This document shows, one piece after another, positions 1-3,000 of a DNA stretch of 4,582 nt. The DNA is taken from the IMG/VR virus record IMGVR_UViG_2671180636_000003. One strand, written 5' to 3'. The position numbers were made by a program. Position 1 is the stretch's first letter. Every line of letters begins with the position of its first letter. This DNA is from a virus. Lineage: Duplodnaviria > Heunggongvirae > Uroviricota > Caudoviricetes.

Positions 1-3000
1 ACACTAAATCAGTAAGTTGGCAGCATCACCGTTTTAACGTTACTAATAAATCGTGAAACAATCTCCTCATTTGTTAGTATTTTCGCCGGAGAATACCCAA
101 CATCATGGGTGATTTTCATAAAGGGATCGCCTGTTTTCGGCAAATCGATAACGCGCATTCCAGGCGGCGCGTTGTCAAACGTCACCTTAAGTTCGCTGCG
201 GGTTGCCGGTGAAGATGCAAGGCTTAACAGCTGATTCCTTTCCAGTGATACATTCGGGGTGTAGCGTTTATCGGGAGATAAATACCCATCACCACGTGGC
301 ATCTGCCATCCGGTCATGTCATAGACAAAATCATGGAACTGTTTGCCCCACTCGTCGAACTTATCATTCAGACCAAATCCACTGTTCAGTGCATCAGCCA
401 CAAAATTTTTAACAAGCCAGGGATGTGCTTTTTCAAACTCCTGCGCCATCATGCCCAGTTCAAGCAATCCACCAATCAGACTGATCTTTCCGAGGCCCTT
501 TAATTTCAGCCCTGTTTTTCCTGCCGCCGTTGTCCATTGATTCTGGGCGACTGTTGCCGCACGAATACTTGCCACCGCCTTCACACCAATATACAGGGCA
601 GAAACCGTTGCTATTGTTTTTACTGCCTGTTCCCATCCCCCCATTGCTCTGACAACCTGATCAACCTCCTGCCAGACTTTTTTCACAACCGGACCGACCG
701 TTTCCCAGTTATCAATTATGAGATATGCACCACCGACGAGAAGCGCAATTAATCCCTTTGCCGGCGTCATATTCATCACGCTACCCATGATTTTTGTTAT
801 GCGTGTCAATGTGCCAATCGCCACGCCCATCGTCAGTAATGCCGCACCAGTTTTCGCGATGGTTTTTACGACCTCAGGATTTTCTCTGACAAACGTGCGC
901 ACTTCTTCCAGAAAAGGCTTCATCTCTTTTATGCCTTCATTGAGTGAAGGCAGGAAGGTTTCCCCCAGCGTGGAAGAAATCGCATTGATCTGGTTCTGCA
1001 GCAGCAACAACTGATTTTCTGTCGTCGCGGCACGGGCGGCATATTCTTTCTGCATTGAGCCGCCATACTGCTGCGCATCCGCCACACGATTAAAGTTGGT
1101 TCGCAACAAATCCAGATTCGTGAGCAGCGGCGCAATGGCCCCCAGGGATTCCTTCCCGAACAGCGCTTTCAGCACAGCAGCCTGTTTTTCTTTCGGCACT
1201 TTTGCCAGAGAATCCAGTACGTGCAGCATGGCCCCGCGGGCGTCTTTCTGCATATCCGCCGCCAGTTTTTTCGGGCTAATGCGCAACGAGCGGAGCACTT
1301 TTTTCTGCGATTTGGTGGCAGAATCCCTCGCTGTCAGCGACAACATAAAATTCTTTATCCCCGTCGCAGCAATTTCTGACTCCACCCCCATTCCGGCAAT
1401 GGTTGCCCCCATTGCGGCAATCTCTCCGGAGGCCACACCCGCAACACTGCCTAAAGGGCCAATACGGGTCACAACATCAGAAATCTTTTTCGCACTTGCA
1501 GGACCGGTATTACCAAGATAGTTAATCTTATCCGCAAGCCCTGCCACCTCTCCCTGTGTCAGTTTAAAGGCAGTGCGCCACTGCGCCATCATCTGACCGG
1601 ATTCTTCTGCCGTGGTGTCAAAGGCCACGCCCATCTTCACGGCATCGTCAGTAAACTGCATCAGCTCGTCACGGGCGATACCAGCCTGACCACCCGCCGC
1701 CACAATTTCGGCGATACCTTCCGCCGACATGGGCAGTTCTGTTGACAGGTCGCGCACCTGCTCCGTCATTGCCTTAAACGCTTCCGGCGTATCCAGACCA
1801 TCCACCACTTTCCGGACATCCGCCATTTTTGATTCANNNNNNNNNNNNNNNNNNNNNNNNNNNNNNNNNNNNNNNNNNNNNNNNNNNNNNNNNNNNNNNN
1901 NNNNNNNNNNNNNNNNNNNNNNNNNNNNNNNNNNNNNNNNNNNNNNNNNNNNNNNNNNNNNNNNNNNNNNNNNGCGGTTCCGGCACCCGCTGCGCCCAGT
2001 AACAGGCTGGCAAACTCCTTTTTAAAACCTTTCAGCTGGCGCTGCATTCCCTTCAGCGGTGCCGATACCTTATCCACGGCAGTGATGATCGCCTTCAGCT
2101 GAAAACTGTCAGCCATGCTTCATCTCCTCGTTNNNNNNNNNNNNNNNNNNNNNNNNNNNNNNNNNNNNNNNNNNNNNNNNNNNNCCAGTTCTGTAAACTG
2201 CGAAACAGCCCCCCGTCGCAGCTCCAGTGGATTCAGTTTCCAGAACCAGGCAACATTGTAGAGTCGTTTCCGGAGGTGCTTCCCGTCTCCGACTGGGTAA
2301 AAAAACGCAGGATCTGCATGCTGGTCTTAAAAATATCCAGTTTTGCCATCTGCGCCGCCGATGAACGCGGGATCCCCGCCAGCAACGGGATATATTTCAG
2401 TGCCACCTGGCTGTCCAGTTTAATACTGCCTTCACCGGAAATAATGAAAGGAAAACCCAGCGCCTCGATTTCGTCATACGTGGGCTCGCGCAACTCCAGC
2501 ACATGCAGCATTTCGTTATGCGCTGTCACCGGTTTTTTTAAAACTATTTCTGTAACGTTCATTGCCATTACTGATACCCTCCCTCTTCGCCGTGGAATTC
2601 AAGATCTGCCGTGCCTTCTTCGGCATTATGATTAGCCTCTCCGTGCAGCCATGCCGCCGAAAGCACATACACCATGCCGTTTGCCAGCTCAGCGGTAATC
2701 GTCATCTGGTCTGAGGTGGTAATTTTGTCGACCGGAAAGTTTTTGGGCACTTTAAACGTGCCCTTAACGTAAGGTGACCGCCNNNNNNNNNNNNNNNNNN
2801 NNNNNNNNNNNNNCTCCTTGTAATCCACATCCCCTGCCATGCCGACGATGTCATCCCGGACATTGGTGTTCATCGGCACTTCAATGCCACCTGTCAGCGA
2901 TAACTGCTGACCATCCACTTTAAAAAAACAGGTTCCGGCGATCTTTGCCATTATGCTGACTCCTCTGAATACTNNNNNNNNNNNNNNNNNNNNNNNNNNN

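What the first reader, a model, noticed from the sequence alone, without database searches (positions are those of the whole stretch)
1827..2116. Tape measure gene appears split: N-terminal ORF and body are in different frames across the masked gap
The ORF starting at 2116 has a strong SD and a tape-measure-like N-terminus, and the 605-codon body is open upstream of its first ATG into the gap. However, the two segments are offset by one nucleotide of frame if the 137-N run has the true length. The tube and sheath ORFs do keep a protein-like frame across their masked runs, so the gap lengths look otherwise exact. Possible explanations are a real frameshift mutation in a decaying prophage, a second recoding event, a separate small gene ending in the gap, or an inexact masked length here.
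Basis: partly seen in the sequence, partly recalled or inferred. Interest (0 to 1): 0.5.

Follow-up and report, generated by a model that had tools for sequence, protein, structure and literature searches.

The report
Assembly gap, not a split gene
The apparent frame break in this prophage tail tape measure gene comes from a run of N of estimated, wrong length in a draft Shigella sonnei assembly; gap-free copies of the same DNA show one ordinary uninterrupted gene at that point.

Summary
The arithmetic is right. With 137 N, the ATG at 2116 and the ATG at 1826 are 290 nt apart, so the two segments are out of frame. The premise that the N-run has its true length is wrong.

The window is the whole public contig CXCJ01000267.1 of GCA_001258775.1 (Shigella sonnei). 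The N-runs are already in that record.

Four gap-free relatives all hold 45, 20, 4 and 421 nt where the window has 137, 52, 31 and 522 N. Two are S. sonnei-type assemblies with no mismatch over 2,004 compared flanking bases. The others are an E. coli chromosome and phage phiP27.

- 137 − 45 = 92, and 92 mod 3 = 2, which is exactly the frame offset.
- Filling the gap with the 45 nt gives one 671-codon ORF.
- All 102 full-length homologues (58–100% identity) align without any indel over residues 1–125.
- Only the tube gap keeps frame, by chance (27 nt excess). The sheath gap does not.

This is the ordinary tape measure gene of a phiP27-like prophage remnant. The real damage lies elsewhere: a 129-nt deletion fuses the 3' end to the next ORF, and an IS1 end sits at 1–30.

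The parts
1974..2116 (-). Visible 5' part of the tape measure gene (codons 1-47 and two bases of codon 48), with a GAGGAG Shine-Dalgarno at 2124-2129
   Evidence: It is 100% identical to L003 2305-2463 and L004 2352-2510. The annotated start of WP_000785377.1 in L001 maps to window 2116.
1837..1973 (.). Scaffold gap: 137 N standing for 45 real bases (AGTACTGGGGGCGCTGGCGCTCCCGGTCAAATCTGCCATTGCCCT on the gene strand, coding for roughly residues 48-63, ..AVLGALALPVKSAIAL..)
   Evidence: The same N-runs are in the public contig. The fill is 45 nt and identical in L001, L003 and L004, and also 45 nt in phiP27.
9..1836 (-). Body of the tape measure gene (PF10145 core). Its last 27 codons are not native: 21 codons come from the downstream ORF after a 129-nt deletion, and 6 codons plus the stop are read from the IS1 end.
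1..30 (-). First 30 bases of an IS1 element, where the contig ends
   Evidence: L004 continues 45 nt further into the element. That 75-mer lies in places annotated 'IS1-like element IS1A family transposase' and is found in 4963 of 5426 E. coli genomes.
2233..2568 (-). Tail assembly chaperone gene (111 aa)
   Evidence: PF10109 Phage_TAC_7 at 6.3e-07, 29.8 bits against a cut-off of 25. phrog_166 at 5.3e-28.
2109..2305 (-). -1 frame extension of the chaperone. It starts at the T7 slippery run (2305..2299) and ends at a TGA (2111..2109) that overlaps the tape measure ATG. It is crossed by the second N-run, 2133-2184 (52 N for 20 real bases).
   Evidence: Three-frame translation of gap-free L003. 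The frameshifting itself is inferred from the known conserved arrangement and was not tested.
2568..2951 (-). Tail tube gene. True length is 357 nt (118 aa), inflated to 384 nt by the 31-N run 2783-2813, which stands for 4 bases.
   Evidence: PF10618 at 1.4e-33.
2951..4548 (-). Tail sheath gene. True length is 1497 nt (498 aa). The 522-N run 2974-3495 stands for 421 bases and breaks the frame in the window.
   Evidence: phrog_165 at 9.3e-217.

Best explanation
The window is a scaffolded short-read draft contig of Shigella sonnei. Its N-runs are scaffold gaps whose lengths are estimates, not counts of missing bases. The run 1837-1973 (137 N) stands for 45 real bases. With 45 bases, the N-terminal segment (from 2116) and the 605-codon body (from 1826) form one continuous tape measure ORF, so nothing is split at this point. 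The gene is the tail length tape measure gene of a phiP27-like prophage remnant with a Mu-type contractile tail module, in the order sheath, tube, frameshifted chaperone pair, tape measure. What is shown: the N-runs are in the public record, and the gap lengths, gap sequences and single ORF are as stated in relatives whose flanks are identical to the window. What is inferred: that this isolate carries the same 45 bases, and that the assembly came from a scaffolder such as SSPACE.
For: -: the 605-aa ORF is found on exactly one public contig, CXCJ01000267.1 of GCA_001258775.1, 4582 nt long; that contig is the reverse complement of the window, with the same four N-runs.
- NCBI names that ORF 'putative tail protein [Shigella sonnei]'. 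The submitter's annotation therefore already started at the internal ATG.
- in L001 (E. coli FDAARGOS_944), L003 (Logan ERR5976065), L004 (GCA_902504205.1) and L005 (phage phiP27), the stretches between the window's visible segments are 45, 20, 4 and 421 nt.
- there are 0 mismatches in 2,004 visible bases against L003. The excesses are 92, 32, 27 and 101 nt, which are 2, 2, 0 and 2 mod 3. One gap in four keeps frame, as expected by chance. The rebuilt contig (4330 nt) has ORFs of 498, 118, 111 and 671 codons.
- the 45-nt fill is identical in L001, L003 and L004.
- the window plus that fill gives a single ORF of 671 codons.
- one tape measure CDS of 1950 nt is annotated in E. coli FDAARGOS_944, in phiP27 and in ETEC6.
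- 102 full-length homologues at 58-100% identity align with no indel over residues 1-125. The distance from GAAGAGTA to ESKMAD is always 15 residues.
- a PHROG tape measure profile (phrog_14441) matches residues 1-223 in one stretch across the join.
Against: - The hidden bases of this particular isolate were not seen. A private indel within the 45 nt cannot be excluded.
- This element does decay. This contig carries a 129-nt deletion and an IS1 end. Another S. sonnei isolate (L004) has a 110-nt frameshifting deletion about 35 nt downstream of the gap.
- I could not show that this accession was made with the Sanger pipeline. The accession was not found in the supplements held for that paper.
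Confidence: 0.95

Rival explanations
1. This isolate has a real frameshifting indel or nonsense mutation inside the hidden stretch, so its tape measure gene is truly split there (pseudogene decay).
For: The prophage is a remnant. It has an IS1 end at 1-30 and a 129-nt deletion at the 3' end of the gene. L004, from another S. sonnei isolate, does have its tape measure gene split into 81 + 544 aa by a 110-nt deletion. The assembler failed at this spot for an unknown reason.
Against: The only evidence offered for a split is the N-run length, and all four runs have the wrong length. The observed offset equals (137 − 45) mod 3 exactly. The first four visible segments have 0 mismatches in 2,004 bases against L003. 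With about three differences from L003 over roughly 3.8 kb of visible sequence, I expect about 0.03 events in 45 nt. That figure is my own estimate.
Confidence: 0.03
2. Two separate genes: a small gene ends inside the gap and the 605-codon ORF starts on its own at the ATG at 1826.
For: The submitter's annotation and the gene caller both start the ORF at 1826.
Against: The ORF is open upstream of 1826 (ESK). No Shine-Dalgarno motif precedes 1826. The 45-nt fill has no stop in frame. Every one of 102 homologues is continuous through this point. The call at 1826 is simply what a gene caller does next to a gap.
Confidence: 0.01
3. A programmed recoding event (a second ribosomal frameshift) joins the two segments of the tape measure protein.
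For: The neighbouring chaperone gene has a T7 slippery run and a -1 extension. That shows recoding in this module, but not in the tape measure gene.
Against: Relatives with identical flanks need no recoding, because they carry a single 1947-1950-nt ORF. No two-frame arrangement is conserved in any homologue.
Confidence: 0.005

Closest known systems
Tail length tape measure protein L47 (NP_543099.1) of Stx2e phage phiP27, NC_003356.1
   Same: 98.2% amino-acid identity over 649 residues to the window's closest E. coli relative. The gene order is the same: sheath (1497 nt), tube (357 nt), small tail protein, tape measure (1950 nt). The DNA is 95-97% identical to the window, with the same 45/20/4/421-nt stretches under the N-runs.
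   Different: In phiP27 the tape measure gene is followed directly by the DNA circularization gene. The S. sonnei and FDAARGOS_944 version has an extra 160-aa ORF (phrog_5586, unknown function) in between. In the window that ORF is fused to the tape measure gene by a 129-nt deletion and cut by IS1.
Tape measure genes of gap-free S. sonnei-type assemblies (L003 = Logan ERR5976065_78; L004 = GCA_902504205.1 CABWFD010000200.1)
   Same: 100% identical to the visible segments that flank all four N-runs, and the same IS1 junction at the end of the contig. They carry the window's allele markers: L at residue 39 in L003's P0005, and FEKAHPW in both P0005 and L004's P0013.
   Different: Both keep the 129 nt that the window lacks. 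L003 has a 3-nt deletion. L004 has a 110-nt deletion that truly splits the gene, at a different place (equivalent to window 1693-1802).
Scaffold gaps of estimated length in Velvet/SSPACE/GapFiller draft assemblies (Page et al. 2016, PMC5320598)
   Same: N-runs of odd lengths lie inside otherwise unique sequence. The segments between them are as short as 159-160 nt. The lengths do not match the real sequence.
   Different: The link between this accession and that pipeline is inferred, not shown.

Membership tests
Phage tail tape measure protein (Pfam PF10145 PhageMin_Tail) | Match to the family profile above the curated cut-off | tested here: met
   the window's 605-aa ORF scores 153 bits (cut-off 33.2, E = 1.2e-44). 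The full-length relative scores 152.8 bits; phrog_28 at 4e-144 and phrog_14441 on residues 1-223.
Phage tail tape measure protein (Pfam PF10145 PhageMin_Tail) | Position directly downstream of the tail tube gene and the tail assembly chaperone gene pair | tested here: met
   the order is sheath, tube, PF10109 chaperone, tape measure, as in phiP27.
Phage tail tape measure protein (Pfam PF10145 PhageMin_Tail) | One continuous ORF from the N-terminal segment through the core | tested here: inconclusive
   Met in L001, L003, L005, L006 and 102 homologues, and in the window once the 45 nt are filled in. The window's own bases in the gap are not available.
Scaffold gap of estimated length (assembly artefact) | The N-runs are part of the deposited record, and their lengths disagree with gap-free copies whose flanks are collinear and identical | tested here: met
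   Searches show the same N-runs in CXCJ01000267.1. Searches show all four runs too long, by 92, 32, 27 and 101 nt, with flanks 100% identical to L003.
Frameshift pseudogene | An indel whose length is not a multiple of three, seen in real bases relative to intact relatives | not testable with these tools
   The bases are hidden, and no gap-free assembly of this isolate turned up (one search lists no 671-aa protein). The N-run length carries no information.
Programmed ribosomal frameshift site | The two-frame arrangement is conserved among relatives, with a slippery sequence at the overlap | tested here: not met
   For the tape measure gene, all relatives are single-frame. The neighbouring chaperone gene does have a T7 run and a -1 ORF.

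The most novel reading that the evidence does not exclude
This isolate carries a private out-of-frame indel inside the hidden 45 nt. Its tape measure gene would then be split at the N-terminus, on top of the 3' deletion and the IS1. That would be one more step in the isolate-by-isolate decay of the phiP27-like remnant in S. sonnei, as already seen in L004.
Probability: 0.03. Interest if true: 0.08.

Novelty: not a real feature. Interest (0 to 1): 0.03.

Why it matters
It matters only as a caution. N-runs in draft scaffolds are length estimates, so a frame relationship read across them means nothing. Biologically the locus is a well-known kind of object: a phiP27-like prophage tail module decaying in IS1-rich Shigella sonnei.

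Tried and rejected
- An exact search for the IS1/ORF junction in genome contigs (species representatives) found nothing. The source was found instead by exact protein look-up.
- A homologue search with the last 100 residues of the fused ORF was meant to find other assemblies with the 129-nt deletion. It returned no scored hits, for reasons I do not understand. Whether that deletion is real or a false join stays open.
- No complete E. coli genome has the window's deletion junction.
- The accession was not found in the supplements held for the Sanger pipeline paper.
- I considered one-for-one masking of real bases and rejected it. It would need four insertions of 27-101 nt that coincide exactly with the masks, in DNA otherwise identical to L003.
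- I considered whether the 6-nt length difference among E. coli relatives (971-nt against 977-nt spans) lies in the gap, and rejected it. That indel is in the chaperone gene (330 vs 336 nt), and the tape measure gene is still 1950 nt.

Full report
**What is in the window.** All recognisable genes lie on the minus strand:
- a tail sheath gene starting at 4548;
- a tail tube gene, 2951..2568;
- a 111-codon tail assembly chaperone gene, 2568..2233;
- an ATG at 2116, preceded by GAGGAG, that opens MADSFQLKAIITAVDKVSAPLKGMQ…;
- a 605-codon ORF, 1826..9.

Four runs of N interrupt the sequence: 1837-1973 (137), 2133-2184 (52), 2783-2813 (31) and 2974-3495 (522).

**The observation.** 2116 − 1826 = 290 = 3×96 + 2, so with 137 N the N-terminal segment and the body are in different frames. 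The body frame is open for three codons (ESK) upstream of its first ATG, up to the gap.

**Where the window comes from.** An exact look-up of the 605-aa product found one public contig, CXCJ01000267.1 of GCA_001258775.1, 4582 nt long. It is the reverse complement of the window and carries the same four N-runs. NCBI lists the product as 'putative tail protein [Shigella sonnei]' (P0010). So the N-runs belong to the deposited draft assembly. They were not added as a mask for this exercise.

**True lengths of the gaps.** I compared the visible segments with four gap-free relatives:
- L001, E. coli FDAARGOS_944, 99.4-100% identical;
- L003, Logan assembly ERR5976065_78;
- L004, GCA_902504205.1;
- L005, phage phiP27, 95-97% identical.

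In all four, the stretches between the window's segments are 45, 20, 4 and 421 nt. L003 has no mismatch in 2,004 visible bases of the first four segments. The 45-nt fill is identical in L001, L003 and L004. The N-runs are therefore too long by 92, 32, 27 and 101 nt, which is 2, 2, 0 and 2 mod 3.

- The tube keeps frame only because its excess happens to be 27 nt. It appears as 127 aa instead of the true 118 aa.
- The sheath does not keep frame. Its true stop is the TAA at 2953..2951. The window ORF that runs on to 2920 is in the wrong frame after the gap.

**One gene across the join.**
- Putting the 45 nt into the window gives a single ORF of 671 codons. The fully rebuilt contig has ORFs of 498, 118, 111 and 671 codons.
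- One tape measure CDS of 1950 nt is annotated in FDAARGOS_944, phiP27 and ETEC6. L003 has a single 648-aa product with the window's own allele markers, L39 and FEKAHPW.
- The 6-nt length difference among E. coli relatives lies in the chaperone gene, not in the tape measure gene.
- All 102 full-length homologues retrieved (58-100% identity) align without any indel over residues 1-125. The hidden piece is always 15 residues between GAAGAGTA and ESKMAD.
- The full-length protein matches PF10145 (E = 1.4e-44). A PHROG tape measure profile covers residues 1-223 in one stretch.

**Why the N lengths are unreliable.** The Sanger high-throughput pipeline (Velvet, SSPACE, GapFiller) was applied to 299 S. 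sonnei samples among others. [quoted passage not shown] That this accession came from that pipeline is my inference from the accession style and species. I could not confirm it. The conclusion does not depend on it, because the length mismatch is measured directly.

**What the locus is.** It is the tail module of a phiP27-like prophage remnant in S. sonnei. phiP27-like prophage regions have been reported in an S. sonnei genome (PMC5447701). From established knowledge of contractile and long-tailed phages, the tape measure protein is held by the chaperone pair and sets tail length while tube and sheath polymerise around it. None of that was tested here.

The chaperone gene carries a T7 slippery run at 2305..2299. 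Its -1 ORF ends at a TGA (2111..2109) that overlaps the tape measure ATG. This is the conserved tail chaperone frameshift arrangement. That is the only recoding candidate in the window, and it is not in the tape measure gene.

**Real damage, elsewhere.**
- Window 1-30 is the first 30 bases of IS1. L004 continues 45 nt further into the element, and that 75-mer lies in annotated IS1A places in 4963 of 5426 E. coli genomes.
- L003 and L004 share this IS1 junction, which cuts the 160-aa ORF downstream of the tape measure gene.
- The window also lacks 129 nt that L001, L003 and L004 all have. The loss fuses the tape measure gene, minus its last four codons, in frame to that downstream ORF, so the product ends …GYSPAKILTNEEIVSRFISNVKTVMLPTY.
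- None of 5,426 complete E. coli genomes has this junction. I could not tell whether it is a real deletion or a false join.
- Another S. sonnei isolate (L004) has a 110-nt deletion, at the equivalent of window 1693-1802, that truly splits its gene into 81 + 544 aa.

**Verdict.** The split is an artefact of an estimated scaffold gap length. I put about 3% on a private frameshift hidden in the gap. Novelty: not a real feature. Interest is very low.

Noticed in passing
window 1-30: The contig ends in the first 30 bases of an IS1 element. The tape measure ORF reads six codons and its stop from it (…VMLPTY*). L003 and L004 share the same IS1 junction.
   Followed up: yes
window about 88-91 (junction GGGTATTCTCC|GGCGAAAATAC on the gene strand): 129 nt present in L001, L003 and L004 are missing here. 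The loss fuses the tape measure gene in frame to the downstream 160-aa ORF (phrog_5586, unknown function). No complete E. coli genome has this junction. It is unresolved whether this is a real deletion or a scaffolding or gap-filling false join.
   Followed up: partly
window 2109-2305, minus strand: The tail assembly chaperone has a T7 slippery run (2305..2299). Its -1 ORF is …FFYPVGDGKHLRKRLYNVAWFWKLNPLELRRGAVSQFTELEAEAVRINEEMKHG*, and its TGA overlaps the tape measure ATG. The 52-N run (20 real bases) also breaks this frame in the window.
   Followed up: partly
L004 2556-2613 (equivalent to window 1693-1802): Another S. sonnei assembly (GCA_902504205.1) has a 110-nt deletion inside the tape measure gene that truly splits it into 81-aa and 544-aa ORFs. 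The 544-aa product was read on two contigs, and its sources are NCBI and Logan.
   Followed up: partly
L001 6354-7648: In E. coli FDAARGOS_944 the sheath gene of the same prophage is interrupted by an ISEc60 (IS4-like) element. The window's sheath is continuous at that site. An 11-nt overlap of the two alignments there suggests a target-site duplication.
   Followed up: no
window 2783-2813 and 2974-3495: The tube appears 9 codons too long (127 vs 118 aa). The sheath appears as a 542-codon ORF that overruns the tube start. Both are artefacts of N-run length.
   Followed up: yes
L003 (P0005): The Logan assembly ERR5976065 has a 3-nt deletion in the tape measure gene (AVKIATVS instead of AVKTIATVS), giving 648 aa.
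   Followed up: no
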